Source: an uncultured Bacteroidales bacterium (GTDB lineage: Bacteria; Bacteroidota; Bacteroidia; Bacteroidales; F082). From it: a stretch of DNA of 64,000 nucleotides. Positions 21,135 through 54,584 of this stretch are shown here, one piece after another. The first letter of the stretch is position 1. Each line of letters begins with the position of its first letter. The translations under genes and the position numbers were made by a program. The notes beneath the pieces were generated by a model that was not told where the DNA came from, did not search any database, and saw only the letters and a program-made list of their open reading frames with translations. The stretch is taken from the NCBI GenBank assembly GCA_947303625.1, contig CAMYYV010000001.1, positions 10,507 to 74,506 of the forward strand, written 5' to 3'.

Positions 21135-21142
21135 TATCTTTG
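21135..21142 (+). promoter_or_regulatory. -7 box TATCTTTG ahead of the TerY-P operon
   Basis: TAnnTTTG match 24 nt upstream of the 21166 ATG. Confidence 0.4.
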
Positions 21143-21165
21143 CAGGCACGAACTAATAACATAAT

Positions 21166-22437
21166 ATGAGCGAATTGCAATCTGGTGAGAAGATAAGCCT
21201 GCTCAACGGCGGCTACGTCACCATCAAGAAAGAGTTGGGTCGAGGAGGCCAGGGCATCGTCTATCTGGTGGACCTCAACGGCCAACCCAAGGCATTGAAG
21301 TGGTATCACAATATGCCTGACCGAAACTTCTACAATAATTTGGCTAACAACGTGATGAACGGCGCCCCAAGCCCGGCTTTCCTTTGGCCTGAGCGTATCA
21401 CCGAGCGTCAAAAGGACAGTTTCGGCTATGTGATGGCTCTGCGCCCGAATAACTACTTTGAATTCGGCAACTATCTCTTAGCGAAGAAGAGCTTCAAGTC
21501 GTTTCAGGCCATGATGGCAGCGGCCATGAAGATCTGCAACGGCTTCATGATGCTGCACCGCTTCGGCTACAGTTACCAGGACCTTAACGATGGAAACTTC
21601 TTCATCGATCCTGACACGGGCGACGTGATGATTTGCGACAACGACAACGTGATGCCGCAAGGGGAGAAGTCGGGCATCATGGGTAAGGCGCGTTATATGG
21701 CCCCCGAGATTGTGGCGGGCGGCATCCCCGACAAGTACAGCGACCGCTTCTCGTTGTCGGTCATACTATTCATGCTTTTCTATGCCAACCATCCGTTTGA
21801 AGGTGCCAAGGTGGTGGCTTGTCCCTGCATGACCGAGGCCTTCGAGAAGAAGTTCTACGGCAGCGAGGCGGTGTTTATCTACGACCCTAACGACAAGAGC
21901 AACCTGCCCGTGCGTGGCATCCACCAGAATGTGATACGCCGCTGGCCGGTGATGCCTGCCGAGTTGCGCGAGACCTTCATCCGCGAGTTCAACCCCGAAA
22001 TGCTGAAGAACCCGCAGAAGCGCATGATTGAGCAGAACTGGGAGAAGTTGATTGCCTCGTTGCGCGACAGATTGGTGATTTGTCCGCATTGTGGAGAGGA
22101 GACTTTCATTGACGAGTCGAAGCCGCAATGTATGAACTGCAAACGCGACGTGGATGTCAGCCGTACGCTGAAACTGGGGATGCGCACCCTGCTGTTGACC
22201 AACGGTACCCGCCTGTTCATCGACTTCGACAACACCCCTGATGCTCGTGTTGTGGCCAATCCGCAGGACCCGGGCATGCTTTTGTTACAAAACTTCTCGA
22301 AAGAGAAATGGACGGCTGAGACGCCAAGCGGCAAGTTAAAAGAGGTTGAACCCAACGGTTTGATGCCCGTCAAACACGGCATTAAGATTTCGTTTAGTGC
22401 TGTCTATAAAGGAGAGATCAATATCAATAATCAATAA
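21166..22437 (+). CDS. Ser/Thr protein kinase of a TerY-P triad, with a C-terminal zinc ribbon and beta-rich tail
   Basis: 423 aa. Gly loop LGRGGQGIVY, beta3 Lys ALKWY, catalytic loop YQDLNDGN, DND in place of DFG, and MAPE. The zinc ribbon is CPHCGEE..CMNCKRD. Confidence 0.85.
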   Translation: MSELQSGEKISLLNGGYVTIKKELGRGGQGIVYLVDLNGQPKALKWYHNMPDRNFYNNLANNVMNGAPSPAFLWPERITERQKDSFGYVMALRPNNYFEFGNYLLAKKSFKSFQAMMAAAMKICNGFMMLHRFGYSYQDLNDGNFFIDPDTGDVMICDNDNVMPQGEKSGIMGKARYMAPEIVAGGIPDKYSDRFSLSVILFMLFYANHPFEGAKVVACPCMTEAFEKKFYGSEAVFIYDPNDKSNLPVRGIHQNVIRRWPVMPAELRETFIREFNPEMLKNPQKRMIEQNWEKLIASLRDRLVICPHCGEETFIDESKPQCMNCKRDVDVSRTLKLGMRTLLLTNGTRLFIDFDNTPDARVVANPQDPGMLLLQNFSKEKWTAETPSGKLKEVEPNGLMPVKHGIKISFSAVYKGEININNQ

Positions 22438-22449
22438 AACTACATCATT

Positions 22450-23193
22450 ATGTCATTATTAGATGAAACTGTAAGCGTGCCGCGCAGAACCATGACGCTT
22501 TTCTTTGTGATCGATACTTCAGGCAGTATGGCTGGAAGCAAGATAGGTGCCGTCAACGACGCGGTGGTCAATGTGTTGCCCATGCTCGACGAGATCTCCG
22601 TCACCAATCCCGATGCCGAAATCAAAGTGGCAGCATTAGAGTTCTCGACGGGTTGCAGCTGGCTTTATAACGAGCCGAAACTGGCCAGCGAGTTTGTTTG
22701 GCAGGACGTGCAGGCCAGCGGTCTCACCTCGTTGGGTGCTGCTTGTGAGGAACTGGAAAACAAGCTGTCACGCAGTAAGGGCTTTATGCAGTCAGCCAGC
22801 GGCTCGTTTGCTCCGGCCATCATATTGCTGTCGGACGGCGCCCCTACCGATAATTTCGAGGCGGGTCTTGACAAGCTGAAGTGCAACAACTGGTTCAAGT
22901 CGGCCATCAAGGTGGCCATCGCCATCGGTGACGATGCCGACAAGGATGTCTTGTCTAGGTTCACAGGCACCAACGAAGCCGTGTTTACCGTCCACAACAT
23001 CGATGCATTAAAACAGATCATCCGTGTGGTGGCCGTCACCTCGTCGCAGATCGGCAGCAAGAGCAGCACGGCTGGCGAAACCACCAAGCAGGACCAAGTG
23101 ATCAACGAGGTGCAGAACGCCATCGACAATATCGACGGTGCCGAAGTCGCGACGAAGGTCGACAGCAGCTCCTATACCGACGATTGGGATTAA
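22450..23193 (+). CDS. vWA-domain protein, TerY-like
   Basis: 247 aa. MIDAS motif FVIDTSGSMAG, later LLSDGAPTD and IAIGDDAD. Size and context match TerY. Confidence 0.88.
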   Translation: MSLLDETVSVPRRTMTLFFVIDTSGSMAGSKIGAVNDAVVNVLPMLDEISVTNPDAEIKVAALEFSTGCSWLYNEPKLASEFVWQDVQASGLTSLGAACEELENKLSRSKGFMQSASGSFAPAIILLSDGAPTDNFEAGLDKLKCNNWFKSAIKVAIAIGDDADKDVLSRFTGTNEAVFTVHNIDALKQIIRVVAVTSSQIGSKSSTAGETTKQDQVINEVQNAIDNIDGAEVATKVDSSSYTDDWD

Positions 23194-23204
23194 GCCTCGA
23201 TTCC

Positions 23205-24464
23205 ATGAAGTGCTTTGATTTTCATTGCCAAGGCGAGAGCCATAAGGCAACCGACAAGGTGTGCCAGGACTTTTCCTACAGTCATATCGATGAGGATGGT
23301 CTTGCCATTGCCATTGTGTGTGACGGACATGGAGGGAAACGGTATTTCCGTAGCGATGTGGGAGCACGTTTTGCCACGGAGATTATCGCCAATAATGTCA
23401 AAGAGTTTGTCAACAACATTGACGAGACATTGCTTGTTGGTCAGCCTTTCACCCAACAAGCGGCGATTCAAACCGAGATTGCTCGGCAGGACTTCCGTAA
23501 GGAAAGACCTGTCGATAAGGCGTTCCGACAGCTGTTTGCCTCCATTATCGGGCAATGGCAGCAGCGGATTGAGCGACATGCAGCCGAAAATCCCCTGAAT
23601 GAGAAAGAAAACGCACAAGTGGAAGAGCAATACCGTAAGGAGTTCCTGTCGGGTTACAAGCTGGAAAAGATCTATGGTTGCACCTTGATGGCATACGTCA
23701 GTACGCCGAAGTATTGGTTCGCCTTCCATCTCGGCGATGGCAAGATGATCTCGTTCGACAAGGAAGCACAGTGGAAGGAGCCCGTGCTGTGGGACGACCG
23801 GTGCTTCCTCAACAAGACCACCTCGATTTGCGACTCTGAGGCTTTGAATGAGTTCCGCTACACCTACCAAGGAGACGGAGAGTTTCCCATTGCCGTTTTC
23901 CTTGGCTCCGATGGTATGGATGACTCGTTTGGCGAGGAAGCCAATCTGGTGAACTTCTATGTGAAAGTGGCAAAATCGTTGGTTACTGACGGCTTTGATG
24001 CCACCTTTACGGACATTAAAGAAACATTGCCGGTGTTGAGCAAGCGTGGCAGCCAGGACGATATGTCGGTGGCCTGTGTGTACGACGAGGCGCGGCTGGA
24101 GGAGGCATTGCCTAAGTTCATTCTTTGGCAGATTGCTGTTACCAAAGCCGACATCCTTGCTGTCAACCGAAAGATCGAGGATGCCAAAGACAGGCGTCGT
24201 CGCTTGGAGGCGATGGGCGGCCATGCCGAGAAGGAACAGATAGAGCTGCGCTACGCCCAAAGCGATATCGCTCGAGGCTACGCTGAGAAGCAGCAGCTAG
24301 TCAAGAAGATGGATATCCTGCTGAAAGAATACTATGGTGATGCTTTTGTGCCTTATCAGGATGAAGTGGGCATAGCAGAAAAGGAGCGTGTTCTTGATTG
24401 GAAGATGATAGAAGGAAGCTCGAATGGAATTAGATTGGTATTGGTTTGGGTAGAGAAAGAATAA
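23205..24464 (+). CDS. PP2C-family Ser/Thr phosphatase of the TerY-P triad, with a coiled-coil C-terminal extension
   Basis: Start taken at MKCFDF (ATG 23205). Motifs VCDGHGGKRYF, HLGDGKM, LGSDGMDDSF and GSQDDMSVACV. Confidence 0.85.
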   Translation: MKCFDFHCQGESHKATDKVCQDFSYSHIDEDGLAIAIVCDGHGGKRYFRSDVGARFATEIIANNVKEFVNNIDETLLVGQPFTQQAAIQTEIARQDFRKERPVDKAFRQLFASIIGQWQQRIERHAAENPLNEKENAQVEEQYRKEFLSGYKLEKIYGCTLMAYVSTPKYWFAFHLGDGKMISFDKEAQWKEPVLWDDRCFLNKTTSICDSEALNEFRYTYQGDGEFPIAVFLGSDGMDDSFGEEANLVNFYVKVAKSLVTDGFDATFTDIKETLPVLSKRGSQDDMSVACVYDEARLEEALPKFILWQIAVTKADILAVNRKIEDAKDRRRRLEAMGGHAEKEQIELRYAQSDIARGYAEKQQLVKKMDILLKEYYGDAFVPYQDEVGIAEKERVLDWKMIEGSSNGIRLVLVWVEKE

Positions 24465-24490
24465 AGCAAAACAGATACACAGTTGGAAAA

Positions 24491-25213
24491 ATGGAATTGC
24501 ACAAAGCTATTAGAAACATTGTTGAAACGGACGGAAAAGAGATTGTGAAAGACGTTCGTTTGGTCAATATTTTGAGTGACTTCCGAGCATTTGATGCAAT
24601 ACCCGCTTCGAAGTACATCTTGAGAGCTGTCATTGCCGATGGCTATGCGCAAAAAATGCTTGCTATTGGTGCGTGGAACTCGCAAAGTGAGAATCTTTGT
24701 AGTCAGTTTGTTGCTACGACTGGTTTTCAAAGTGATTATGCTTATATGGTTTTCCAGAGTTTGGCGTATGGATTAGGGTGGATAAATCAATTGACACAAC
24801 CTAATTCGAGTTATACTCAAAACCAACAACCAGTGCAAGGTGCACCTTCTTCAATACCTATAAAGAAATTGACAACGAAGGAACAACGAGAGGCGCATCT
24901 TCTCAGTAAAGTCGAGTTTCTGAATGATATTAAACAAGAATGTGGCTTAGAAATAACTAATATGTCATTTGAAATGTATAATAATGATGACAGAAGTTTT
25001 TATTTCAATTTTGAAGTTAGAGGTAAAATAATGAGTGATGATGCTGATATTTACATTGCTTTCTATGATAAACAGAATAAGATTAGGCGAAAGGAAGATT
25101 TATGGGTGGTTTATAAAGATGGTACTTATCATGGACTTTCAATTGAGTCGACTTTTTTTGAATTGCCAATGTCAGTTGATAATATTGGCCGTATATGTAT
25201 TTTTCTCCAATAA
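24491..25213 (+). CDS. Hypothetical protein (240 aa) in an AT-rich insert
   Basis: ORF from ATG 24491 (MELHKAIRNIV...). I recognise no motif. Its composition is visibly AT-richer than the flanking genes. Confidence 0.65.
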   Translation: MELHKAIRNIVETDGKEIVKDVRLVNILSDFRAFDAIPASKYILRAVIADGYAQKMLAIGAWNSQSENLCSQFVATTGFQSDYAYMVFQSLAYGLGWINQLTQPNSSYTQNQQPVQGAPSSIPIKKLTTKEQREAHLLSKVEFLNDIKQECGLEITNMSFEMYNNDDRSFYFNFEVRGKIMSDDADIYIAFYDKQNKIRRKEDLWVVYKDGTYHGLSIESTFFELPMSVDNIGRICIFLQ

Positions 25214-25220
25214 AACGATT

Positions 25221-25313
25221 ATGCGAAAACTATTCAAAGAAGCATTCGTAACAATGGGGAGAGTTGGTAGCCGAAAACAAGGTCGCTGTGAGGTTGTCAT
25301 CAAGAACTATTAA
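25221..25313 (+). pseudogene. Decayed duplicate of the 5' end of the TerY-C gene
   Basis: atgcgaaaactattcaaagaagcattcgtaacaatgggg at 25221 parallels atgagaaaactatcaaaagaagcatttgtgacgatgggc at 25325. The peptides are MRKLFKEAFVTMG and MRKLSKEAFVTMG. The copy then diverges and stops after 30 codons. Confidence 0.45.
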
Positions 25314-25324
25314 AAACGAGTAAT

Positions 25325-25693
25325 ATGAGAAAACTATCAAAAGAAGCATTTGTGACGATGGGCGTCTGCTCCAAGTGCAAGAAGCCTTTCGGGATCACAG
25401 TCGACCTGGCTGATGAACGGCGCAACGAATACGTGTTCGTCTGGGCGTTCAAGATCAATGCAGAGCAGGCACACCGTGAGGGCTACGACAGCAAGACGGT
25501 CCACGGGGGCATCAGCTACGATCCCGAATACCCAGGCTGTCCCTACTGCGAGGAGCAGGCTTTTTACATCTGTGGAAAATGCGGTAGCATCGTCTGTTGG
25601 CATGGCGATCGTGAGGTTACCTGCCCTAAGTGTGGCAACCGTGGTGTGGTCGAAGAGGCCTCGTCGTTCGATATCAGGGGAGGAGGCTACTAA
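25325..25693 (+). CDS. Stand-alone TerY-C-like metal-binding (multi-CxxC) protein
   Basis: 122 aa with CSKCKK, CPYCEE, CGKCGS and CPKCGN motifs. The TerY-C metal-binding domain is described as a partner of TerY-P triads. Confidence 0.7.
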   Translation: MRKLSKEAFVTMGVCSKCKKPFGITVDLADERRNEYVFVWAFKINAEQAHREGYDSKTVHGGISYDPEYPGCPYCEEQAFYICGKCGSIVCWHGDREVTCPKCGNRGVVEEASSFDIRGGGY

Positions 25694-25696
25694 GAC

Positions 25697-26566
25697 ATGG
25701 GCCAGACCTCACATCCTCAGGCGGAAACCTACTGTGAGCAGGGTAAGAAACTGCTGGAGCAGGGTAAATACCTTGCGGCATTGGAGTATTTCCAGGCTGC
25801 CGTGGAGCTTGATGCCGAGCACGTAGATGCACTCTATGGTCAGGTGTGCGTCTACAGGGCATTGGGTAAACTCGACAAGGAGGCAGAGTTTCAAAGGCGC
25901 ATGGATGCCGTCATCCAAAAGAAACCCTCCGGCAGTCATTGGGATCTGTCGTCGATGGGCCAACTTGAAAAGGCCAGAAAACGCTATTCGGTTTTGCTGA
26001 AACAACTGATAACGGTAAAGACGGATGAGTATGGGTTGAAGTGCGGTGTTTATTCGCCGGACGCCTGCAAAGAATTGGCGTCATGTGAGGCATTGATCGA
26101 GTCGCTGGAACAGCAGCTGAAGCTCAATCGCACCGATTTCAAGAGGAAGAGGGCAGAAGCCCTGTCACGTATTTCCTCGGGCCCGAAGGATATCAAGAGG
26201 GCCTACAGGAAAGCGAAGCGGAAGTATGCCCGACTGATAAGGCATAACCTTGTGAGGGTGAAGGGTCCGGTAAGGGCTTTCGAGGTGTCGTCGTCAATCT
26301 GGAATCGCGAGAAGGCCATCAGGTCGATGATTGAGGCTTTGGATCCTGTGAACGGCAAGTCTTGGTGCAGCCGCAAGGTCTCCACTTTGATACAGAGACG
26401 GACGAATCTTCCTCGTAGGCTGTTGAAAGCATTGAAAATCACTGGCATAGTGGCAGCTGTCGGCGTTGGCATTTTGCTTGTCTATCTCGTGATAAGGTTC
26501 TTTTGGTACATCATCATAGGCGGAGCGATATTGCTGGCGATTATTGGAGTTTTCAAAGGCGACTGA
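25697..26566 (+). CDS. TPR-repeat protein with a C-terminal membrane anchor
   Basis: 289 aa. TPR-like helices (YCEQGKKLLEQGKYLAALEYFQAAVELDAEHVDALYGQ) and two C-terminal TM segments (ITGIVAAVGVGILLVYLVI, IIIGGAILLAIIGVF). It starts 3 nt after the TerY-C stop. Confidence 0.8.
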   Translation: MGQTSHPQAETYCEQGKKLLEQGKYLAALEYFQAAVELDAEHVDALYGQVCVYRALGKLDKEAEFQRRMDAVIQKKPSGSHWDLSSMGQLEKARKRYSVLLKQLITVKTDEYGLKCGVYSPDACKELASCEALIESLEQQLKLNRTDFKRKRAEALSRISSGPKDIKRAYRKAKRKYARLIRHNLVRVKGPVRAFEVSSSIWNREKAIRSMIEALDPVNGKSWCSRKVSTLIQRRTNLPRRLLKALKITGIVAAVGVGILLVYLVIRFFWYIIIGGAILLAIIGVFKGD

Positions 26567-26607
26567 CAAGGCGGAGCAGTCAGAATCGTGTTTTTTTCGA
26601 AAGAATT

Positions 26608-26640
26608 GCCCCTAAACAAAACTAAGGGGCTTTTTTTGTT
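26608..26640 (+). terminator. Rho-independent terminator
   Basis: GCCCCT-aaacaaaacta-AGGGGC followed by TTTTTTTGTTTTTTC. It lies 42 nt after the TPR gene stop. Confidence 0.6.
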
Positions 26641-26681
26641 TTTTCTTTTTTTGAAAAGTGGATTTTGGTTTATTTTTTGCG

Positions 26682-26689
26682 TATCTTTG
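26682..26689 (+). promoter_or_regulatory. -7 box TATCTTTG ahead of the giant helicase gene
   Basis: TAnnTTTG match 72 nt upstream of the 26761 ATG. The leader contains an AACCGAA..TTCGGTT hairpin. Confidence 0.4.
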
Positions 26690-26760
26690 CAATTCTTAAC
26701 CGAACAAGGCCATTTTGTCTATGATTTCGGTTCGTTATAACCAACTAAATCAACATATCT

Positions 26761-29700
26761 ATGGAATTTGACGATATATTTCAATCCAATGCAGAAAATA
26801 AAAGCCAATCTGCGGAAGACCTTTGGGCAACTGGGGATAGCTCAAAGCAAGGCGGGAGCCAAACATACGACTTTCAATCCCAGGATTTTTTTGATTTGCT
26901 GAGCAAGGATAGCGGTCCAACGGAGACTGTTACTTTTGGTTTTGACGGGCTGATGGATTCGCCTAAAAAAGAGATGGCTATTGAGGATGCGCTTCAAGAA
27001 TCACATTTTGTCCCGACAGACGGTCTTGTGGCCTACTATCCCTTCGATGGCGACACCAACGATTATAGTGGCAATGGAAATCATGGAACCATCATTGGTG
27101 ATGTCGAGCCAGCGCCTGGCAGACATGGCAATCCCAATGGTGCCTACCGTTTCCCGGGTGAACCATTCAATTACATTTCTATTCGCGATGCCGAAGTCCT
27201 ACATCTGAGCTCTTTTACGCTTAGCGCTTGGGTTTTCTCGGATTCGGAAGACTATGGTTCGGGTCCTGTCGACCTTCCCGTATTAAGACCCATCATTAAC
27301 AAGGGAAGAGATATTGTTAATGGCTCCTACCGCTTGAATGTGAATGGCGTTGGTGCCCAAAACCTATACGGAGGGTCTAATGACGCTAGTGTCGACCACA
27401 TCCCCCAACTTGGTCAATGGCACATGGTTACAGGAACGGTAAAGGGGGATCAGGCTCGTTTATACATCGATGGCAAATTACAAGCAGAAACGATATTGTC
27501 GTTTCCTTTCAGCTATGGCAATTCAGATCCTTTGGCAATAGGAATGCACTATTATCCAGGGGTACCACCACAATGGGCCTATCCTTTTAAAGGGGTCATT
27601 GACGAAGTAAGGATTTACAATAGGGCTTTTTCACCGTCGGAAGTGAATTCGCTATATCATTATGATGAAAGAGGTGCAGGTGCCTCTATTGATCATTCTG
27701 CAGAAGAATCAAACGATGGCCTGGCGGAGCAGGAATTTGGTGAGTACGAGGTCGACTTCATGGATGAAACCAAGATCAAGGTAGTGATCAACCACAACCC
27801 ATCGGTGAATTTCGCCATGCAGCAGAACAGAGTGCCGTTGCTTAAGGAGATTCGGGTGAGAAACGTGTCGAATAGCTTGCTTTCCGATTTGGTGGTTGAG
27901 GTCACTGCTGATCCGGAGTTTGCCACAAGGTGGACCTGCGGCATCACGGAGCTCTCTTCGTTGGAAGAGGTGAGCATCACCGACATCCCATTGGCGGTGT
28001 CGGCCTCCTACTTGGCCCAGTTGACCGAGGGTGTGGCAGGCAATCTGCGCGTGCGCATCAGGATGGGCAAGGTGGGATTGTACGACCAAACCGTTCCCGT
28101 CGACCTGGATGCCTTCGACCAATGGAGAGGACTCTCGATGGAGCCTAAGGTGCTGGCGTCGTTTGTGCAGCCTAAGCATCCTGCCTTGCCGCCTATCTTG
28201 GTGAAAGCTTCAGAGATCTTGAAGAAATGGTCGGGTTCGCCTACCTTTGACGAATACCAGACCAGAGACCCCAACCGCGTCAAGATGCAGATGGCCTCGG
28301 TATTTGCAGCTTTGGCGGAACTGAAAGTGGTCAACGTGTCGCCAGCCGTCGACTATACTCGGTCGGGCGACAAGTTACGTTTCCCCGATGCCATCATCGA
28401 CACAAGGATGGCTTCTGATTTGGACATGGCCTTGCTCTATGCATCGCTTTTGGAGGCTATCGGTCTTCATGCGTTGATTGCCTTCTCCGAAGATGCCATT
28501 TTGGTGGGTAGTTGGCTCATTCCCGATTGTTTTGCAGATACGGCGGGCGACGATGTTTCGTTGCTGTCGAAGCGACTCTCCAAAGGCATAGAGGAACTGG
28601 CTTTCGTCAGTGTGAAGTGCCTGTTCTCGGGCAATGCGAAACCCTTCGATAAGGCTGGCGACGATGCGGCTGCCGTGCTATCGAATGTCGACAAGTTCTT
28701 GATGGTTATTGATATCTGTCGTGCCCGTATGTCGCATATTCGTCCCTTGCCTTTGCGCGTGATGGGAAGCAACGGCTACGAGATTGTTGTGGAAGAGGAT
28801 GACATGGATGCCGAAAAGCCTATGCAAGTGTCGGCGGGCAATCTTGTCTTGGACGATGGCACGACCGAAGTCACCAAGCAGACGATTTGGGAAAGAAGGT
28901 TGCTGGACTTGACCCTACGTAACAACCTGTTGAGTACCAGGATCAATAAAAAGACCTTGCAGATCGTGTCTGTCAAGGTGAATGAAATTGAGGATGCCCT
29001 TGCCGCCAATCAGGAGTTCAAGATCTTGGAATGCCCTGAGGAGCTGGAGCATCCCGTAGGGGTGGAAGGCATCTTCCAGACCCCGAATAATTCGGACACC
29101 GTCATCGACTTCTTGAGGGAGGAGCTGAAGCAAAACCGCTTGCATGCCTACTTGAAGAAGGACGATTTAGAGTCGGCACTGACGCATCTCTACCGTCAGT
29201 CGCGTCTGTCGATAGAGGAAAACGGTGCCAACACGTTATATCTCGCCATCGGATTGCTTCGGTGGTATGAGACCCCGATCAGCACCAAGCCGAGATTTGC
29301 CCCCATTTTACTTTTGCCTATTGAGATGGTGAGGAAGTCGGCGGCGAGAGGCTATGTCATCAGAGGACGCGGTGAGGAGACCATGCTCAACATCACTTTG
29401 CTCGAATTGCTGCGCCAGTCGTTTGGCATCACCATCAGCGGCCTCGATCCGCTGCCCACCGACCATTCGGGCGTGGATGTCGTCAAGGTGTTCAATACCT
29501 TCCGTAACGCCATCATGGAGCAAACAAGATGGGATGTCGAAGAACAGGCCATCATCGGGACTTTCTCTTTCAACAAGTTCTTGATGTGGAACGACATCCA
29601 CAACAATGTCGATGTGTTGCGACAGAACAAAATTGTCAACGGCTTAATTACAGGACAGGTGGATTGGGGCGACGACCTGCAGGGCGAGATGCCCGATCTG

Positions 29701-35437: not shown

Positions 35438-35453
35438 AAAAGAAAAAGCAGTT

Positions 35454-35461: not shown

Positions 35462-35483
35462 AATAGTTACTTACTAAAATATT

Positions 35484-36476: not shown

Positions 36477-36486
36477 GAGACAAACC

Positions 36487-37587: not shown

Positions 37588-40500
37588 ACGCTCGCCCATA
37601 AAAGAACTGCTGCCACCCATCATTGTCTCCGTGGTTTTGGTGGGTTTGTTCATCTCCCTCTTGCACAATGTTGACCGCCGAAATGCATCAGTGGTGGCCG
37701 ATATTGAAAACAAGAGGGCAGTTGTGCTTTCGCCCGGTTGCGACACTTCGCTGTTGTCGGAGATTATCTACAATGACGGTTATGCCGAGACGAAGGAAGA
37801 TGCCGATTTCATCGCGTCCGTTTTGGTCGAACGGCAGAAGAAGAAAGGCAGGTTGCCCAGTCTCTTCACCTTGCAGAAACGCGCCTTCGGACAGGTGAAG
37901 GCGGATACTGCTGCCGCTGAAGGAGTCCTTCCTTTGAAACTGAAGACGTCGTACGATAAGATTGGCCAGAACGATACGGTGTTCCCGTTTGAGGAACCGA
38001 TTCACGGTGGAATAGGAAAGATGACGGTTAAGGTGTATAAAAAGAAGCCGTCCGAGAAGTGGTGGAAAAGGATGATGAAGATGGAAGACAATGACCCATG
38101 CAAGGTCGACACGGTTCTTTTGACCACCTACTACCGTGATTCGTTGAATGCGCCTTGTCCGGCCGCTGTTGGGTTTCTTCCAACGGATTCATTGGGCGTT
38201 GCAGTTTTTTGTGGTTTGGATACCGCGGCCTCGTACAGCGTATTGCCTATAAAGCACGGTTGCGAGTATGGCTCGTCGAAAGGAACGGTGGGCGGAAAAT
38301 GGAAGATGCGCAAGTCGGGCGAGGGGATGGTTTTCTCCTTCGAGCAGAAGGAGCATCTGATTCCTCTATTTGGCAATGCCACGCTGAAGCAAATCAAGGC
38401 CGACAGGACCATCTTGGTGCGTTCGCCAAAAGAGTTCAAGGATGTGGCCGTGAAGTGGTTCGTGTATGTGATGCTTGCCTGGTGGGCACTTTGCTTATAC
38501 CTGATTGTCAGAAAAAAGAAGTTCAACGGTGCGTTGGTGGCATCCTGCATGTTTCTCTCGGTGTTGTGCGTGCTGATGATGTTCTCGATGCAAGATCCGC
38601 TGAATGATGAATTGAATGGAATCGTGATGGGAAAGGGCGTGGTGTTGGGTCTTGCGGTTTGCCTTGTGTTCCAAAGTGTTGACTTTGTGAAGTTTTATCA
38701 AAACAATAGCAAGTTGGGCTTCGACATCCCTTTGAACCTGTTCCGATGGCTGTTTTGTCCTTATCGCCAAAAAGTGGCCGGTTTGGCCAATACTTTGAAG
38801 GGCGATGCGAACGTGGCAAAGAAGATTTGGGCCATGATATTGGTACTACTTTCGTTGCCGTTCTTGCTCCTCGACTTGTTGCAAATCACCCGTTTGGGCA
38901 AAGCCGTTGACAGGCTTTGCGAAAAACTCCCCAAGGGAATAGGATGGCTCGTGTTGGCGTTGCTGCTGACCGCCATGCTATGGACGCCATTCGGTCAAGC
39001 CATCGGCGGCATGAAGGTGAACCTTAAGTTGGCCAGTCTTGTGTTCCAGCCCAGCGAGATTGCCAAGTACCTCATCCTCTTCTTCATGGCGGCGTTCTTC
39101 ACCCAACAGGCCGACACCATTATCGCCTATTCGCAACCACAACGGATGAACATGATGGGCAGCAAGTTGAAAACCTTGTTGTGGATTGTCCTGGGGTTGG
39201 CGGTCTTGATGGCCATGTATCTCGCCTTGGGCGATTTGGGACCGGGTCTTGTTATCGGAATAACCTTTATCTTGCTCTATTCCTTGATTAAATCCAAGGT
39301 GAATTTGGAACATCTGGATGAAGGGGGACGATGGAAGCGTATCTTTACGTGCGACTTTGCTATGCTCATTTATGGCGTGCTGACCTTCGCGGGATTCTTG
39401 CTGCTTGGTTATCAACTTGGAGGGAGACTGGTCATGTTGCTGTTTGGCGTATTGTGGTTTGTGTTTTGGGTGGCCCTAGGCTATTTCGGCTTTAGGAAAC
39501 AACTGTTCGAATCGGCCATGCTGTTCAATATGGTGGTCTTCGTGTTCGTTTGTGGTGGCGACCTCATGCAATTGATACCGGGCGTGAAGGACAGCAGCGC
39601 TGTTGAACGCTTTAACGACCGCGTGGAAATGTGCACCAATACCTGGGGCGACTTGGATATTGAGCACCTGGGCGAAAACGCCAAGGATGTGTCGAACAGC
39701 CAGGTGGCCAATGGACTTTGGGCCATGGCCACAGGCGGCATGACGGGGCAGGGACTAGGCGAAAGCAGACCTAGTCTGATACCGGCCTTCCATACCGACA
39801 TGATATTGTCTAGCATCGGCGAACAGATGGGATGGATAGGCCTGCTGATGGTGGTGGCGGCCTTGTTTGTATTGTTGCGAAAGATGGCCGTTGTTGGTTA
39901 TCGGGTAGGGCATCCCTTCGCTTTTTACCTGTGTTTGGGCTTTGCCATCGTTATCGGAGTCCAGTTCTTTATCATTGCGTTGGGCAGTTCGGGCATGATC
40001 CCTCTGACCGGCGTGACAGTTCCTTTCTTGAGTTTCGGTCGCGTGAGCATGATCCTCAACCTCGCCGCTTTTGGCGTTGTGCTTAGTCTCTGTAACAACA
40101 TCCGCGAGGAAGAGACGGCGGTTGAGGAGAATGTGCGGCAAAAGACGGTGGAGCAGTACAGCTATCCTGTGGCCATGGTCACTATGGTGTTCCTGGTTCT
40201 CGCTGTTTCCACTTTGCTCGTATGGCAGTATTATCAGTTGTGGAACCGTGACAGCACCTTGATACGCCCGGCCTACGTCATCAACAACCAGGGTGCTCCT
40301 GAGGTGGACTATAATCCGCGCATCAATTTGTTGATGAACAACATGTATGCTGGCAGGATATATGACCGAAAGAATAGGCTGTTGGCTACTGGTGACAAGA
40401 ATGAGATTGATACCGCCAGTTGCGTGCGTGCGGGACTGGACAAAGAAAAGCTGATGAGGCTGATGACGCGCCACCAGAGGCGTTACTATCCTTTTGGAGA

Positions 40501-42163
40501 ATACATGTTCTTTATGGTGGGCGACCAAAATGAAGGCATCATGTTTGCCTATGATGAATACCATCCTGCGGGTTACATGGCGGAGGCGCAGCATCTGTCG
40601 TATCTTCGCGACTTTAAGACCGCCATGTTGGATGAATCGGGGAAACCGGTGAAGGTTGAATTGAATACGGACAGGCTGAAAGAGAGTTCCTATCTTGCTC
40701 CTCGTTCTGCAAAGCTGACTTCCAAATTGAGAGACTATTCGGAATTGTTGGTCTATTTGAAGGATGGCATTGACGGGAAGAAAGTGGAGGAGCACAACAA
40801 AAAGGTGAAGGAGAGCAACTTCGACTTGCACCTCACGGTGGATGCTGCCTTGCAGGTGGAACTACAAAAGCAGATAGCGGACTTTATAGAGAAAGGAGAG
40901 TATAAAGGCAAGGCCTATAAGGACATGAATTTGCTCCGTGTCTCGGCAGTGGTGTTGGATGCCGAGAATGGCGACCTGCTGGCATCCGCCAACTATCCTT
41001 TGCCAGACTATGACCGTCTGCGCGAGGAAGAGGATATTGCCAGAAGGAGAGGGAGACCATACGCCGTCTATTCCGATAATCTGAAAGATACAAAATGGCC
41101 GACCTATACCGACAGGGATTTGGGGACCACCTATCAAACCCCGCCTGGTTCCACGGCAAAGGTGATGTCGGCGATGGGCGGTTTCAGGAAGTTGGGAATG
41201 GTTGCCCAAAACCAGACTTATAGGATTACGAATGCCAACGCCATTGAAAAAAACAAGAAAGGAGAGGTTATTGAACCTACAGGAGATGATGTTGCCATGG
41301 ATGTCGCCATAATTAAGTCTTCCAATTGCTATTTTGTCAACTTGGTCAATGAACAACAGTTGTTTGACAATCTTAAAGAGGTGTATTCTTCTGTTGGAAT
41401 CAACATTGGAGGCATCATGCCTTATTGTTATACAATCAAGGAAGACAAGGGATGGGAAGAGAAATACTATGCAAAGATTGACAAGAATAAGAAGAAAGCG
41501 TATGACAAGTATGAACTTTTCGACAAAGGAAAGTTGGTCGACCCGAAAGATAGGAAGGTGAAGCCCAAAGCGTCCACCAATATGAGCGTGCCAGAATGGA
41601 AATGGGCATGGGGACAAGGATACAGCGATGTAGAGACGGGTGAGAGTTTCGATTTCTTGGCCTCGCCGCTCAACATGGCCCGTGTGGCCGCTACGGTGGT
41701 TAACGGAGGTGAGATGCCCGTTACCCAATATGTCATGCAACGCAATGATTATGAACGGTCTTTGCGAAAGGAAAGGACGGTGCCGTTGATGAAGCCTGGA
41801 GAGGCGAGAATCTTGAAGGGATACATGCTCAAGGAATCGGCCAATCAGAAAGGGAGGAATGGCGTCAAACTTCCAGAATATGTTGGGGGCAAGACAGGCA
41901 CGCCGGAGCGAGGCAGGATAAGAAGCGCATACGAGAAGAACGACAAAATCCATTACACATACGACAAGCAAATCAATGATGGTTGGTACATGTTCTTCGT
42001 CGAAGGCGATGCCACGCATCATTCCATTGCTGTAGCGGTGCGCTTGGAAAGGTTGTGGGTTATTGATGCTAATGCCGGTGCTGGTTCGGGCGCGGCAGTG
42101 AGACTGACAGGAAGCAAGGTCTTGGATTGCTTGAGAAAATATGGCTATATTAGAAATGACTAA
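37580..42163 (+). CDS. Fusion protein: N-terminal extension (about 300 aa) + SEDS glycosyltransferase (FtsW/RodA/SpoVE) + class-B penicillin-binding transpeptidase
   Basis: 1527 aa. SEDS motifs: FQPSEIAKYLILFFMAAFF (about 39044), LGDLGPGLVI, HTDMILSSIGEQMGWIG and PLTGVTVPFLSFGRVS. PBP motifs: VVLDAENGDLLASANYP, SxxK in PPGSTAKV (about 41147), SxN in KSSNCYF and KTG in GGKTGTPE (about 41888). The start overlaps the PP2C stop by 8 nt (ATGAATAG). Confidence 0.92.
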   Translation: MNRRSPIKELLPPIIVSVVLVGLFISLLHNVDRRNASVVADIENKRAVVLSPGCDTSLLSEIIYNDGYAETKEDADFIASVLVERQKKKGRLPSLFTLQKRAFGQVKADTAAAEGVLPLKLKTSYDKIGQNDTVFPFEEPIHGGIGKMTVKVYKKKPSEKWWKRMMKMEDNDPCKVDTVLLTTYYRDSLNAPCPAAVGFLPTDSLGVAVFCGLDTAASYSVLPIKHGCEYGSSKGTVGGKWKMRKSGEGMVFSFEQKEHLIPLFGNATLKQIKADRTILVRSPKEFKDVAVKWFVYVMLAWWALCLYLIVRKKKFNGALVASCMFLSVLCVLMMFSMQDPLNDELNGIVMGKGVVLGLAVCLVFQSVDFVKFYQNNSKLGFDIPLNLFRWLFCPYRQKVAGLANTLKGDANVAKKIWAMILVLLSLPFLLLDLLQITRLGKAVDRLCEKLPKGIGWLVLALLLTAMLWTPFGQAIGGMKVNLKLASLVFQPSEIAKYLILFFMAAFFTQQADTIIAYSQPQRMNMMGSKLKTLLWIVLGLAVLMAMYLALGDLGPGLVIGITFILLYSLIKSKVNLEHLDEGGRWKRIFTCDFAMLIYGVLTFAGFLLLGYQLGGRLVMLLFGVLWFVFWVALGYFGFRKQLFESAMLFNMVVFVFVCGGDLMQLIPGVKDSSAVERFNDRVEMCTNTWGDLDIEHLGENAKDVSNSQVANGLWAMATGGMTGQGLGESRPSLIPAFHTDMILSSIGEQMGWIGLLMVVAALFVLLRKMAVVGYRVGHPFAFYLCLGFAIVIGVQFFIIALGSSGMIPLTGVTVPFLSFGRVSMILNLAAFGVVLSLCNNIREEETAVEENVRQKTVEQYSYPVAMVTMVFLVLAVSTLLVWQYYQLWNRDSTLIRPAYVINNQGAPEVDYNPRINLLMNNMYAGRIYDRKNRLLATGDKNEIDTASCVRAGLDKEKLMRLMTRHQRRYYPFGEYMFFMVGDQNEGIMFAYDEYHPAGYMAEAQHLSYLRDFKTAMLDESGKPVKVELNTDRLKESSYLAPRSAKLTSKLRDYSELLVYLKDGIDGKKVEEHNKKVKESNFDLHLTVDAALQVELQKQIADFIEKGEYKGKAYKDMNLLRVSAVVLDAENGDLLASANYPLPDYDRLREEEDIARRRGRPYAVYSDNLKDTKWPTYTDRDLGTTYQTPPGSTAKVMSAMGGFRKLGMVAQNQTYRITNANAIEKNKKGEVIEPTGDDVAMDVAIIKSSNCYFVNLVNEQQLFDNLKEVYSSVGINIGGIMPYCYTIKEDKGWEEKYYAKIDKNKKKAYDKYELFDKGKLVDPKDRKVKPKASTNMSVPEWKWAWGQGYSDVETGESFDFLASPLNMARVAATVVNGGEMPVTQYVMQRNDYERSLRKERTVPLMKPGEARILKGYMLKESANQKGRNGVKLPEYVGGKTGTPERGRIRSAYEKNDKIHYTYDKQINDGWYMFFVEGDATHHSIAVAVRLERLWVIDANAGAGSGAAVRLTGSKVLDCLRKYGYIRND

Positions 42164-42213
42164 AAAAAAGAAGGAAAATGTATAAGAATAGGGTCTGTTT
42201 GTTGAAGTTTTTG

Positions 42214-42221
42214 TACTTTTG
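42214..42221 (+). promoter_or_regulatory. -7 box TACTTTTG (candidate promoter for the kinase and downstream genes)
   Basis: TAnnTTTG match 61 nt upstream of the 42283 ATG. Confidence 0.35.
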
Positions 42222-42282
42222 GCATGGTTTTAAAGACAATTGCAATTGCGTTGAATAGTCTGGTGGGAGTAAATCTGAAATA

Positions 42283-43683
42283 ATGGATTTTTTAAAAGAA
42301 TATACGCTGTTAGGTGAACTGGGCAAAGGCGGTTTTGCCAAGGTCTATAAAGTCCGGCACAACACGCTGGACTACATCCGTGCTATTCGGGTGTTGAATG
42401 AGACTGTTACTGATGAAGGCAGCAAGACCTATCAGAATTTTCTGCGAGAGTGCAAAGTGTTGCTTCGCCTTGGCAATGGCAGCCATCGCAACATTGTTCA
42501 CATCTACCAGCCCCGTTTGTTGGATAACCACGCTTTGGTGGAGATGGATTTTGTGGACGGCAAAGACTTGTCGGGCTATTTGAATGATAACGGCAATTTC
42601 CTGCCTATAGACGAGGTGTTGCGTATGGTGGAGCAAATAAGCAGCGCCTTGGCATACTGCCACGAAGACATCTACAAGTTTTGCATGGACCGCGAAGTTG
42701 ACAATCTGAAAGACGACCCGGTGGACGGCAGTCGCGTGCTAATAGATGAAGATACCCGCCATAGGTTGATTGAGAAATACAAAGTTATCCATAACGACAT
42801 CCACTCGGGAAACATCATGCGGAGGGAGGACGGGAGTTTCGTGCTTTTGGATTTTGGGTTGGCCATTACAGGCAGCGATGATGTGTGCAAGACAAGTCGT
42901 CACGAAAACGGCGCAGTGGAGTATAAGGCGCCTGAGAAATGGGACAAAGATGCGGTGTTGACCGAACAGTGCGATGTGTATGGCTTGGGCGTTGTTATGT
43001 ACGAATACATGACAGGCCGTGTGCCTTTCCCATACGACAAGAATTTGTCGAAGACAGAGGCCGAATTCAAGTTGCTGAAAGCACACCTTGAGCAGACGCC
43101 GCCGTCTATTGGTGATATGCGCAGGGCCTACTACGAGGCGAAATACCCCGGTTTGGTTTATGAGAAAGACTATCCCGACTGGTTGGAGGCGGCTGTCATG
43201 CGGTGTCTGGAGAAAGACCCGTCCAAGCGATTCCGCAATGGCAAGGAACTGTATGAGTACATCGTGGCTCATCGCAGCGAGAACACGAAAACCCGCTTGG
43301 AGGAAGAGATAAAGAGATTGAAAGAATCGTGTGATGAGTTGGCCTCTGAGGTCCAGAGACTACAAGCGGAAAACGAGACGCTGGTCCAGCAATTGGATAG
43401 CGAGCAGGGACGGAAAGAATCCTACGATGAGTTGGTTTCTGAGGTGCAGAGACTAAAAACTGAGAATGAGACTTTGAACGCTCGTCTGAACGAGGAGCAG
43501 GGGCAGAAAAAAGAAGAGCAAGATGAAACACCCTTAGAAGTTCAAGAACCCAAAGATGAAAATGATGCGGTGATTGAACAACCAAAGCCTGAATACGTTC
43601 CGAAAGTCTGCAAGAGATGCGGGACGATAGCAATATCCATCGATGCCAAGCGTTGTAGGAAGTGCGGGAGAAAGCTGGAATAA
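42283..43683 (+). CDS. Hanks-type Ser/Thr kinase-like protein (atypical catalytic residues) with a coiled-coil repeat and a C-terminal zinc ribbon; no TM or PASTA
   Basis: 466 aa. Motifs LGKGGFAKVY, AIRVL (Arg where the beta3 Lys is expected), HNDIHSGN, DFG, KAPE and DVYGLGVVMYE. Two 31-aa coiled-coil repeats are present. The C-terminus is CKRCG..CRKCG. Confidence 0.85.
   Translation: MDFLKEYTLLGELGKGGFAKVYKVRHNTLDYIRAIRVLNETVTDEGSKTYQNFLRECKVLLRLGNGSHRNIVHIYQPRLLDNHALVEMDFVDGKDLSGYLNDNGNFLPIDEVLRMVEQISSALAYCHEDIYKFCMDREVDNLKDDPVDGSRVLIDEDTRHRLIEKYKVIHNDIHSGNIMRREDGSFVLLDFGLAITGSDDVCKTSRHENGAVEYKAPEKWDKDAVLTEQCDVYGLGVVMYEYMTGRVPFPYDKNLSKTEAEFKLLKAHLEQTPPSIGDMRRAYYEAKYPGLVYEKDYPDWLEAAVMRCLEKDPSKRFRNGKELYEYIVAHRSENTKTRLEEEIKRLKESCDELASEVQRLQAENETLVQQLDSEQGRKESYDELVSEVQRLKTENETLNARLNEEQGQKKEEQDETPLEVQEPKDENDAVIEQPKPEYVPKVCKRCGTIAISIDAKRCRKCGRKLE
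43330..43515 (+). repeat. In-frame 93-bp tandem duplication (2 copies) inside the kinase gene
   Basis: tgtgatgagttggcctctgaggtccagagactacaagcggaaaacgagacg... parallels tacgatgagttggtttctgaggtgcagagactaaaaactgagaatgagact.... The peptides are CDELASEVQRLQAENETLVQQLDSEQGRKES and YDELVSEVQRLKTENETLNARLNEEQGQKKE. Confidence 0.8.
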
Positions 43684-54578: not shown

Positions 54579-54584
54579 TTCTTG

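What the first reader, a model, noticed from the sequence alone, without database searches (positions are those of the whole stretch)
21135..43683. Whole island: two kinase/PP2C pairs and three phospho-reader or adaptor proteins bracket a helicase-nuclease and a dedicated cell-wall synthase
Within 22.5 kb, all on one strand, the window encodes 2 Ser/Thr kinases, 2 PP2C phosphatases, 2 FHA proteins, a vWA protein, a TerY-C zinc protein, a TPR membrane protein, a 2502-aa helicase-nuclease and a SEDS-PBP fusion. A secreted NucA-like nuclease lies immediately upstream. TerY-P and Hhe-like genes are defence-associated, and kinase-triggered abortive infection is known from Staphylococcus Stk2. One testable hypothesis is a composite system in which phosphorylation gates both a DNA-targeting effector and envelope remodelling. 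The alternative is simple co-location of independent modules in a defence island.
Basis: inference. Interest (0 to 1): 0.75.

Follow-up and report, generated by a model that had tools for sequence, protein, structure and literature searches.

The report
Two unrelated kinase-phosphatase modules, side by side
The 22.5-kb "island" is two separately inherited gene sets that are neighbours only in this species: a mobile candidate anti-phage unit (a kinase/phosphatase/vWA switch beside a giant helicase-nuclease) and a stable chromosomal cell-wall synthesis cassette resembling the mycobacterial fhaA-pknB cluster.

Summary
The idea of one composite system is not supported.

Module A (about 21.1-34.3 kb):
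- It holds a TerY-P triad (Ser/Thr kinase with zinc ribbon, MIDAS vWA, PP2C), a small helical-domain protein, a TerY-C zinc protein and a TPR membrane protein.
- It also holds a 2502-aa helicase-nuclease that passes NCBIfam's cut-off for "anti-phage protein ProA". It fails the Hhe cut-off.
- Triad plus long helicase recur together at three other genomic sites, none of which has module B.

Module B (34.3-44.9 kb):
- It holds an FHA protein, an FhaA-like protein, a membrane PP2C, a fused SEDS-class B PBP, a kinase and a zinc-ribbon membrane protein.
- These genes recur as a set in about 25 loci, down to 32% identity. The downstream flank is partly conserved in the closer relatives (64-93% identity).
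- The helicase is adjacent only in relatives of at least 88% identity.

Three sub-findings may be new:
- An unannotated 105-residue helical domain occurs only in TerY-P loci, at the front of interchangeable partner proteins (helicase, or the first protein of an HxsD/radical-SAM cassette).
- In this window a LamG domain, apparently captured from surface proteins, replaces that domain on the helicase.
- All 33 module-B kinases examined carry Arg in place of the catalytic Lys.

The parts
20337..21110 (+). Secreted NucA-like non-specific endonuclease. It is a neighbour that may travel with module A.
   Evidence: Endonuclease_NS E 1.5e-50. N-terminal signal or lipoprotein-like peptide. A 72% homologue lies directly upstream of the kinase in L010, and a 51-aa remnant sits at the same position in L003/L004. 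It is absent in L001 and L126.
21135..21142 (+). Bacteroidetes-type -7 promoter motif (TATCTTTG), 31 nt before the module A kinase gene
   Evidence: Pattern TAnnTTTG. This is a consensus match only.
21166..22437 (+). TerY-P Ser/Thr kinase with a C-terminal zinc ribbon and a further domain of about 95 aa
   Evidence: Pkinase 54.5 bits. Lys, catalytic Asp and Asn are present. The CPHC...CMNC zinc ribbon is read from the sequence. It is 87-90% identical in L001-4, L010 and L126-9.
22450..23193 (+). TerY-like vWA protein with a DxSxS MIDAS motif
   Evidence: VWA E 1.9e-11. The motif DTSGS is read from the sequence. It is 94% identical in relatives.
23184..24464 (+). PP2C phosphatase of the triad
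   Evidence: PP2C_2 E 7.4e-28. It is 85-86% identical in relatives.
24491..25213 (+). N-dom protein: a seven-helix N-terminal domain, a disordered linker and a beta-sandwich C-terminal domain
   Evidence: 585 representative clusters, with homologues starting at query residue 16. AF2 model pLDDT 91.7. No PDB fold hit at E <= 1e-3. No Pfam or PDB sequence hit. The N-dom HMM hits only TerY-P loci.
25220..25258 (+). 85% copy of the first 39 nt of the TerY-C gene, lying in the intergenic gap; a likely recombination scar
   Evidence: Direct repeat D3.
25325..25693 (+). TerY-C zinc-binding protein
   Evidence: TerY_C 35.8 bits, above the cut-off. Homologues of 53-78% identity occur in most TerY-P loci examined; none was detected in L003/L004 or L135/L136.
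25697..26566 (+). TPR protein with a C-terminal membrane anchor
   Evidence: TPR_16 and related families. Hydrophobic segment at aa 242-289. TPR proteins recur in L003, L010 and L126.
26609..26689 (+). Terminator-like hairpin (CCCCTAAACAAAACTAAGGGG plus a T run), followed by the -7 promoter motif TATCTTTG at 26682
   Evidence: Sequence shown. This suggests the helicase gene is its own transcription unit. Inference only.
26761..34269 (+). ProA-type (Hhe-related) SF1 helicase with a PD-(D/E)xK nuclease. Its N-terminus is a disordered segment plus LamG (aa 74-303).
   Evidence: NCBIfam ProA 2019 bits against a cut-off of 1500; Hhe 797 bits against 2000. PADLOC PDC-S37 1255 bits and Hhe 550 bits. 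Pfam domains. LamG is 64-69% identical to repeats in giant surface proteins.
34342..35271 (+). FHA-domain protein (C-terminal FHA)
35484..36476 (+). FhaA-like protein (weak FhaA_N signal; divergent C-terminal FHA-like region)
   Evidence: The single-sequence AF2 model was uninformative.
36487..37587 (+). Membrane-anchored PP2C (PstP-like)
   Evidence: PP2C_2, PP2C and SpoIIE hits. TM segment at aa 292-318.
37580..42163 (+). SEDS glycosyltransferase fused to a class B PBP transpeptidase
   Evidence: Pfam. Invariant STAK, SSN and KTGT motifs and the SEDS motif HTDMILSS. Far below the FtsW, RodA and PBP2 equivalog cut-offs.
42283..43683 (+). Cytoplasmic Hanks-type kinase with a coiled coil and C-terminal zinc ribbon. 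Arg36 replaces the canonical beta3 Lys.
   Evidence: Pkinase 129 bits. 33 of 33 family members have Arg, with Glu, Asp, Asn and DFG conserved.
43705..44898 (+). Protein with an N-terminal zinc ribbon, a TM segment and extracellular Flg_new_2 repeats; a candidate sensor partner of the kinase
   Evidence: Pfam. TM segment at aa 27-51. Zinc-ribbon/TM proteins lie next to or near a kinase gene in L005, L007, L008, L095, L098, L111, L117 and L118.

Best explanation
Two independent modules happen to abut in this Bacteroidales lineage.

Module A is a candidate anti-phage unit.
- The TerY-P operon (kinase with zinc ribbon, MIDAS vWA, PP2C, plus the N-dom protein, the TerY-C zinc protein and the TPR membrane protein) forms a phosphorylation switch.
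- Inferred: the switch senses an infection cue and licenses or restrains the adjacent ProA-type helicase-nuclease, which attacks invading DNA. PP2C resets the switch.
- In relatives the link is a 105-residue helical domain (N-dom) at the helicase N-terminus. In this window N-dom sits on a separate 240-aa protein, and the helicase carries a LamG domain instead.

Module B is a self-contained, phospho-regulated peptidoglycan synthase.
- A fused SEDS polymerase and class B transpeptidase is controlled by a Hanks-type kinase, a membrane PP2C and two phosphothreonine-reader proteins.
- A zinc-ribbon membrane protein supplies the extracellular domain.
- It is the Bacteroidales counterpart of the actinobacterial fhaA-fhaB-pstP-rodA-pbpA-pknA-pknB cluster.

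Shown: domain content, conserved catalytic motifs, co-occurrence patterns and independence of the two modules. Inferred: every biochemical step.
For: Independence of the modules:
- triad plus long helicase at three other sites, without module B.
- module B in about 25 loci with no helicase unless identity is 88% or more.
- the junction varies among close relatives.
- module B keeps the downstream neighbours (348-aa protein, FKBP, Na/H antiporter, topoisomerase) in the closer relatives (64-93% identity).

Module A as a unit:
- The triad is 85-94% identical wherever the long helicase occurs.
- The N-dom HMM hits only TerY-P loci, and every one of them. There are no hits in the helicase-only or module-B loci examined.
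- N-dom is fused to the helicase in relatives.
- The CoCoNuT paper (PMC11090510) describes TerY-P as a vWA, a PP2C and a kinase with zinc ribbon, attached to helicase/nuclease systems and acting as stand-alone defence.
- NCBIfam names the helicase as anti-phage ProA, above the cut-off.

Module B:
- Invariant SxxK, SxN and KTG motifs and SEDS motifs.
- FHA in 18 of 20 relatives and FhaA_N in 7 of 18.
- The actinobacterial cluster is described in PMC6554272.
Against: Against module A as one unit in this window:
- A terminator-like hairpin and a separate promoter motif precede the helicase gene.
- The helicase lacks N-dom.
- It is only 57-61% identical to the N-dom-bearing helicases, although the triad is about 90% identical. 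Coupling may be weakened or lost here.
- 79 of the 80 best-matching helicase loci (of 409 relatives found) lack any triad, so ProA-type proteins work without it.
- Triad kinases at 71-77% identity pair with an HxsD/radical-SAM cassette instead.

Against an active module B kinase:
- The invariant Lys-to-Arg change might make it a pseudokinase.

General limits:
- There is no expression or phenotype data.
- I could not retrieve the experimental source for 'ProA'.
Confidence: 0.72

Rival explanations
1. One composite system: phosphorylation by the two kinase/PP2C pairs jointly gates the DNA-targeting helicase-nuclease and envelope remodelling by the SEDS-PBP fusion.
For: - All genes are co-directional and tightly packed. 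No promoter motif was found in the 72-nt gap between the helicase and FHA genes.
- The adjacency is kept in four contigs from different samples at 88-89% identity.
- FHA readers could in principle bind substrates of either kinase.
Against: - The adjacency is limited to one species-level lineage. About 30 module-B loci and more than 80 helicase loci show no co-occurrence.
- The junction is interrupted by another gene in L090.
- The two kinases belong to different families.
Confidence: 0.05
2. Three independent units rather than two: the TerY-P operon is a stand-alone defence system, and the ProA-type helicase-nuclease is a separate single-gene defence system that merely sits in the same hotspot.
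For: - A terminator-like hairpin plus its own promoter motif lies before the helicase gene.
- The window helicase has no N-dom.
- 79 of 80 helicase loci have no triad.
- TerY-P-like modules act alone as defence, as cited from Gao 2020 in PMC11090510.
- The space between PP2C and the helicase is a cassette-swapping zone: unk237 in L001, TPR plus SLFN_AlbA_2 in L126, and a scar at 25220.
Against: - The long helicase clade is found next to the triad in all three other contexts recovered. Those contexts have different flanks.
- In these relatives the helicase carries N-dom, which otherwise occurs only in TerY-P loci.
Confidence: 0.2
3. Module B is simply the housekeeping elongasome or divisome synthase pair of this organism with its regulators, and not an accessory cassette.
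For: - Its downstream flank is partly conserved in the closer relatives.
- Catalytic motifs are intact.
- The actinobacterial counterpart is a conserved cell-division locus.
Against: - Scores are far below the NCBIfam equivalog cut-offs: FtsW 111 against 337, RodA 79 against 337, PBP2 60 against 455.
- Only one of the best 120 fusion relatives carries an organism name, an uncultured Bacteroidales MAG, and none comes from a named isolate.
- The rest of the genome, where canonical mrdAB and ftsWI would lie, could not be inspected.
Confidence: 0.15

Closest known systems
TerY-P triad (Anantharaman, Iyer & Aravind 2012; tested as a defence system by Gao et al. 2020; accessory of Type II/III-A CoCoNuT systems, PMC11090510)
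   Same: A vWA with MIDAS motif, a PP2C and a Ser/Thr kinase with a C-terminal zinc ribbon, encoded contiguously, with a TerY-C protein nearby. The triad sits next to an SF1 helicase/nuclease effector.
   Different: - The partner here is a ProA/Hhe-type DUF4011 helicase with an MTES_1575 nuclease, not CnuH/CnuE or McrBC.
- An unannotated helical domain (N-dom) marks the partner proteins.
- PADLOC gave no hits for the vWA or the PP2C.
- I could not read the 2012 paper, so it may already describe N-dom or this pairing.
ProA (NCBIfam NF058533) and Hhe (NF042953; Gao et al. 2020) single-protein helicase-nuclease defence systems; PADLOC candidate PDC-S37
   Same: DUF4011, an SF1 helicase (AAA_11/AAA_12), an MTES_1575 Vsr-like nuclease and DUF3320. 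The protein passes the ProA cut-off.
   Different: - It is about 570 aa longer than the common 1930-aa form.
- It has a LamG N-terminal domain, where its closest clade has N-dom.
- It is linked to a TerY-P operon.
- It fails the Hhe cut-off.
Actinobacterial fhaA-fhaB-pstP-rodA-pbpA-pknA-pknB cell-wall/division cluster (PMC6554272), also present in some Firmicutes
   Same: Two FHA-type proteins (one with an FhaA_N signal), a membrane PP2C, a SEDS protein, a class B PBP and a Hanks kinase, all in one co-directional cluster.
   Different: - The host is Bacteroidales.
- SEDS and PBP are fused into one 1527-aa protein.
- The kinase is cytoplasmic, has no PASTA domain and ends in a zinc ribbon.
- The extracellular domain sits on a separate zinc-ribbon membrane protein.
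- The catalytic Lys is invariably Arg.
- Gene order is permuted between lineages.
   Same: A Ser/Thr kinase in a defence context.
   Different: There is no sequence or architectural relationship beyond the kinase fold. Stk2 has no vWA, PP2C or helicase partners. This is recalled from general knowledge and was not tested here.

Membership tests
TerY-P triad | TerY-like vWA domain with a MIDAS motif | tested here: met
   VWA E 1.9e-11. The DTSGS motif is read from the sequence.
TerY-P triad | PP2C phosphatase encoded next to the vWA gene | tested here: met
   PP2C_2 E 7.4e-28. The gene overlaps the end of the vWA gene by 10 nt.
TerY-P triad | Ser/Thr kinase with a C-terminal zinc ribbon (or OB fold) | tested here: met
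   Pkinase 54.5 bits. The CPHC...CMNC motif follows the kinase domain. The fold of the last 95 aa was not determined.
TerY-P triad | Recognised by a defence-system HMM set | tested here: inconclusive
   In PADLOC the kinase hits only generic PD-T4-6 and mad6 models. The vWA and PP2C have no hits.
TerY-P triad | Confers phage resistance that depends on phosphorylation | not testable with these tools
   This needs an experiment.
ProA anti-phage protein (NCBIfam NF058533) | Whole-protein score above the curated cut-off | tested here: met
   2019 bits against 1500.
Hhe (NCBIfam NF042953) | Whole-protein score above the curated cut-off | tested here: not met
   797 bits against 2000. The PADLOC Hhe match is partial at 550 bits.
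ProA/Hhe-type helicase-nuclease | Intact helicase Walker A and B motifs and a PD-(D/E)xK nuclease domain | tested here: met
   GPPGTGKS (aa 1016-1023) and DEASQ (aa 1896-1900) are invariant in alignment A1. MTES_1575 E 1.5e-26.
fhaA-pknB type cell-wall cluster | FHA phosphothreonine-reader protein(s) | tested here: met
   34342-35271 hits FHA, as do 18 of 20 relatives.
fhaA-pknB type cell-wall cluster | FhaA-type protein (FhaA_N plus FHA) | tested here: inconclusive
   Seven of 18 relatives of 35484-36476 hit FhaA_N (best E 0.0017) and 3 of 18 hit FHA. The window copy has no hit. hhalign probability is 40%. The AF2 single-sequence model failed.
fhaA-pknB type cell-wall cluster | Membrane-anchored PP2C (PstP-like) | tested here: met
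fhaA-pknB type cell-wall cluster | SEDS protein plus class B PBP with catalytic motifs | tested here: met
   Here the two are fused into one polypeptide.
fhaA-pknB type cell-wall cluster | Transmembrane PASTA-domain kinase | tested here: not met
   The kinase has no TM segment and no PASTA hit. It scores 150 bits against a cut-off of 450 for the PknB_PASTA model.
Housekeeping FtsW, RodA or PBP2 equivalogs | Score above the NCBIfam equivalog cut-off | tested here: not met
   111 against 337, 79 against 337 and 60 against 455.
Active Hanks-type kinase (module B kinase) | Canonical beta3 Lys, alphaC Glu, catalytic Asp and Asn, DFG Asp | tested here: not met
   The Lys is Arg in 33 of 33 family members. 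The other four residues are conserved.

The most novel reading that the evidence does not exclude
N-dom is a previously undescribed adaptor domain through which one TerY-P phosphorylation switch plugs into interchangeable output modules. The outputs seen here are a ProA-type helicase-nuclease, an HxsD/radical-SAM peptide-modification cassette and WG-repeat proteins. TerY-P would then be a general infection or stress sensor with swappable effectors. In this window's lineage the helicase exchanged that adaptor for a LamG domain captured from a cell-surface protein, which would rewire what triggers it.
Probability: 0.3. Interest if true: 0.65.

Novelty: new variant of a known kind. Interest (0 to 1): 0.45.

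Why it matters
- For annotation: two kinase/phosphatase pairs sitting side by side should not be read as one signalling system. Only the left half is defence-like.
- For phage-defence biology: the TerY-P triad appears here as a portable regulator with at least two different outputs, tied to them by an unannotated domain. This gives a concrete handle on how such accessory switches are wired to effectors.
- For cell-wall biology: the locus shows that the FHA/PP2C/SEDS/PBP/kinase arrangement, best known from Actinobacteria, also exists in gut and rumen Bacteroidales. There the synthase is naturally fused, and the kinase family has an invariant Arg at the ATP-anchoring position. Either feature could inform how SEDS-bPBP pairs are regulated.

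Tried and rejected
- Exact look-up of the window's own helicase in the contig index found nothing. The window's species is not among the GTDB representatives; the best match is 61%, a rumen Bacteroidia MAG.
- Cluster look-up gave no names.
- Literature searches for TerY-P plus Hhe, PDC-S37, ProA, DUF3320, and FHA/PP2C/FtsW in Bacteroidetes returned nothing usable. Anantharaman 2012 is not held.
- Profile searches of the FhaA-like protein, the FHA protein and N-dom against PDB sequences found nothing significant.
The single-sequence model was useless, with pLDDT 34.
- Foldseek of the good N-dom protein model found no hit at E <= 1e-3. Only generic beta-sandwich matches to the C-terminal domain appeared.
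- No relatives of the helicase or the SEDS-PBP fusion were found on viral contigs.
- The sigma-70 promoter and terminator scan was at background level.
- No flanking direct repeats or att-like sites bound the region.
- I considered that the LamG fusion might be an assembly chimera and rejected this. The same architecture occurs in independent assemblies: P0002 and L005.

Full report
**1. What is in the window**

ORF listing and Pfam scans confirm a co-directional array on the + strand.

| Coordinates | Content |
|---|---|
| 20337-21110 | Secreted Endonuclease_NS |
| 21166-22437 | Ser/Thr kinase; a CPHC...CMNC zinc ribbon follows the kinase domain |
| 22450-23193 | vWA protein with a DTSGS MIDAS motif |
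| 23184-24464 | PP2C |
| 24446-25213 | Unannotated ORF; true start probably 24491 |
| 25325-25693 | TerY_C zinc protein |
| 25697-26566 | TPR protein with a C-terminal membrane anchor |
| 26761-34269 | 2502-aa protein: LamG, DUF4011, SF1 helicase, MTES_1575 nuclease, DUF3320 |
| 34342-35271 | FHA protein |
| 35484-36476 | 330-aa protein with no Pfam hit |
| 36487-37587 | Membrane-anchored PP2C |
| 37580-42163 | 1527-aa SEDS-transpeptidase fusion |
| 42283-43683 | Kinase with a coiled coil and zinc ribbon |
| 43705-44898 | Zinc-ribbon/TM/Flg_new_2 protein |

The host is Bacteroidota. The window contains T9SS sorting domains and DUF5683. No Shine-Dalgarno-like sequence is evident upstream of the starts, by my reading. 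The nearest genome is a rumen Bacteroidia MAG.

**2. One block or separate modules?**

I centred comparisons on each large gene in turn.

Helicase-centred comparison:
- A protein search found a close clade of 2280-2304 aa at 57-63% identity, and a much larger clade of about 1930 aa.
- Contigs carrying the close clade show kinase, vWA, PP2C, sometimes an N-dom protein and TerY_C, then the helicase. This occurs at three other chromosomal sites with unrelated flanks: L001/L126, L003 and L010. None has FHA or SEDS genes nearby.
- A scan of species-representative genomes returned 409 helicase relatives. Of the best 80 loci, only L010 has the triad and none has module B.

SEDS-PBP-centred comparison:
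- The fusion is a large full-length family.
- In about 25 metagenomic loci down to 32% identity it stays with the FHA protein, the 330-aa protein, the PP2C and one to three kinases. Gene order is permuted between lineages.
- The helicase is adjacent only in loci of at least 88% identity: L005, L006, L090 and L097. In L090 an extra 775-aa kinase gene separates the two.
- Several closer relatives (64-93% identity) keep some of the downstream neighbours: the 348-aa protein, FKBP, the Na/H antiporter and topoisomerase. I read this as vertical chromosomal inheritance.

Conclusion: the two halves have independent phyletic patterns.

**3. Module A**

Identity of the parts:
- NCBIfam places the helicase-nuclease in "anti-phage protein ProA" (2019 bits, cut-off 1500). 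It fails Hhe (797 against 2000).
- PADLOC gives the candidate family PDC-S37 (1255 bits) and a partial Hhe match.
- The three upstream genes match the TerY-P triad as described in PMC11090510: a vWA, a PP2C and a kinase fused to a zinc ribbon. That paper describes the triad as accessory to helicase/nuclease systems, and as stand-alone defence in Gao 2020.

Conservation pattern:
- The triad is 85-94% identical between the window and all long-helicase loci.
- The helicase itself is only 57-61% identical to that clade, whose members are 75-89% identical to each other.

The N-dom link:
- Relatives' helicases begin with a 105-residue domain that the window's helicase lacks.
- The same domain forms the N-terminus of the window's 240-aa protein.
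- It also forms the N-terminus of the first protein after PP2C in related TerY-P loci. There the downstream cassette is HxsD plus two radical-SAM enzymes rather than a helicase. This was seen in 4 of 4 contexts sampled at 71-77% kinase identity.
- An HMM of this domain, run over all ORFs of 136 loci plus the window, hits only TerY-P loci, and hits every one of them.
- The domain has 585 representative clusters, some fused to WG repeats.
- It has no Pfam or PDB sequence match.
- A high-confidence model (pLDDT 91.7) shows a seven-helix bundle, a disordered linker and a beta-sandwich. There is no significant PDB fold match.
- I therefore infer that N-dom is the coupling element between the triad and its interchangeable partners.

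Features specific to this window:
- The helicase instead carries a disordered segment plus a LamG domain. That domain is 64-69% identical to LamG repeats in giant Bacteroidales surface proteins. The same architecture occurs in independent assemblies.
- A terminator-like hairpin and a Bacteroidetes -7 promoter motif precede the helicase gene.
- A 39-nt copy of the TerY_C gene start lies in the preceding gap.
- Different cassettes occupy the space between PP2C and the helicase in L001 and in L126.
- Together these mark the stretch as a recombination zone. Coupling of triad to helicase may be looser here than in relatives.

**4. Module B**

Enzymes:
- The transpeptidase motifs STAK, SSN and KTGT and the SEDS motif HTDMILSS are invariant across the family.
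- Scores against the FtsW, RodA and PBP2 equivalog models are far below their cut-offs. The fusion is therefore not a recognisable housekeeping orthologue.

Phospho-readers:
- The FHA call is solid at family level: 18 of 20 members hit FHA.
- Seven of 18 relatives of the 330-aa protein weakly hit FhaA_N, and three hit FHA. FhaA_N is the N-terminal domain family named after FhaA.

Comparison with the actinobacterial cluster:
- With a TM-anchored PP2C, the set parallels fhaA-fhaB-pstP-rodA-pbpA-pknA-pknB. That cluster is conserved in Actinobacteria and a subset of Firmicutes (PMC6554272).
- Differences: SEDS and PBP are fused; the kinase has no PASTA domain and no TM segment; a separate zinc-ribbon membrane protein carries variable extracellular domains.

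Kinase active site:
- In 33 of 33 family members the canonical beta3 Lys is Arg (YIRAIRVL).
- The alphaC Glu, the catalytic Asp and Asn, and the DFG Asp are all conserved.
- Whether this family is active is open.

Defence signal:
- PADLOC finds nothing defence-specific in module B.

**5. Mechanism and its status**

Shown:
- Domain architectures, conserved catalytic residues, co-occurrence and independence of the modules.

Inferred:
- In module A the kinase/PP2C pair sets the phosphorylation state of an N-dom-bearing partner, or of the helicase itself.
- The vWA MIDAS site, TerY-C or the zinc ribbon provides the input.
- The helicase-nuclease is the DNA-directed effector.
- Module B is a kinase/phosphatase/FHA-regulated peptidoglycan polymerase-transpeptidase.

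The main rival for module A is that the triad and the helicase are two stand-alone systems sharing a hotspot (confidence about 0.2).

**6. Verdict**

- The composite-system interpretation is not supported.
- Each module is a new variant of a known kind.
- The points most worth follow-up are the TerY-P-specific N-dom with its swappable partners, the LamG capture, and the Arg-substituted kinase family attached to a natural SEDS-bPBP fusion in Bacteroidales.
- I could not check whether Anantharaman et al. 2012 or the ProA source paper already describe the first of these.

Noticed in passing
window 26980-27669 (helicase aa 74-303): The LamG domain at the N-terminus of a cytoplasmic helicase-nuclease is 64-69% identical to internal LamG repeats of 1500-3100-aa Bacteroidales surface proteins. 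It occupies the position where relatives carry N-dom. This looks like a recent domain capture.
   Followed up: partly
window 42388-42390 (module B kinase Arg36): The canonical ATP-anchoring Lys (VAIK) is Arg in all 33 module-B kinases examined, while Glu, the HxD Asp, Asn and the DFG Asp are conserved. The family is either a pseudokinase or an atypical active kinase.
   Followed up: partly
window 25220-25258 vs 25324-25362: An 85% copy of the first 39 nt of the TerY_C gene lies in the gap after the N-dom protein gene. It is probably a scar of cassette recombination.
   Followed up: no
L130, L131/132, L133/134, L135/136: Related TerY-P triads (kinase 71-77% identical) are followed by an N-dom protein, a protein of about 300 aa, HxsD and two radical-SAM enzymes instead of a helicase. 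L133 has a second N-dom protein after the radical-SAM genes.
   Followed up: partly
window 5778-6563: A 261-aa protein with no Pfam hit matches the PADLOC phage-defence candidate PDC-S30 (281 bits). It is another candidate defence gene, 15 kb upstream.
   Followed up: no
window 12013-13386 (- strand): A 457-aa protein has a weak TerB (tellurite-resistance) domain hit, 8 kb from the TerY-P operon.
   Followed up: no
window 44882-55935: A low-GC (34-41%) run of signal-peptide or lipoprotein genes includes four tandem paralogues (CarboxypepD_reg plus Lcl_C) and a 945-aa relative. In close relatives this stretch is only 35-55% identical, or absent (L090), while the flanks are 83-97% identical. It is a hypervariable surface-protein locus.
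   Followed up: partly
L003/L004 6471-6623; L010 5484-6250: A NucA homologue (72%) or a 51-aa remnant (57%) lies directly upstream of the TerY-P kinase in two other genomic contexts. The secreted nuclease gene may travel with module A.
   Followed up: partly
L008/L009 6363-9894: In a distant relative, module B is preceded by NusG, a short PP2C, a 208-aa protein and a BrxL-like ATPase (BrxL_N and BrxL_ATPase).
   Followed up: no
L126/L127 8317-9729 and 14071-15612: Compared with L001, a variant of the same site has a group II intron reverse transcriptase upstream of the triad. It also has a SLFN_AlbA_2/HATPase_c_4/HTH protein plus a TPR protein in place of the N-dom protein.
   Followed up: no
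window 21135, 26682, 35454, 42214: Four TAnnTTTG (Bacteroidetes -7) motifs lie 30-80 nt upstream of gene starts, within about 0.9 kb of intergenic sequence. The window average is 0.45 per kb. They suggest transcription units starting at the module A kinase, the helicase, the FhaA-like gene and the module B kinase.
   Followed up: no
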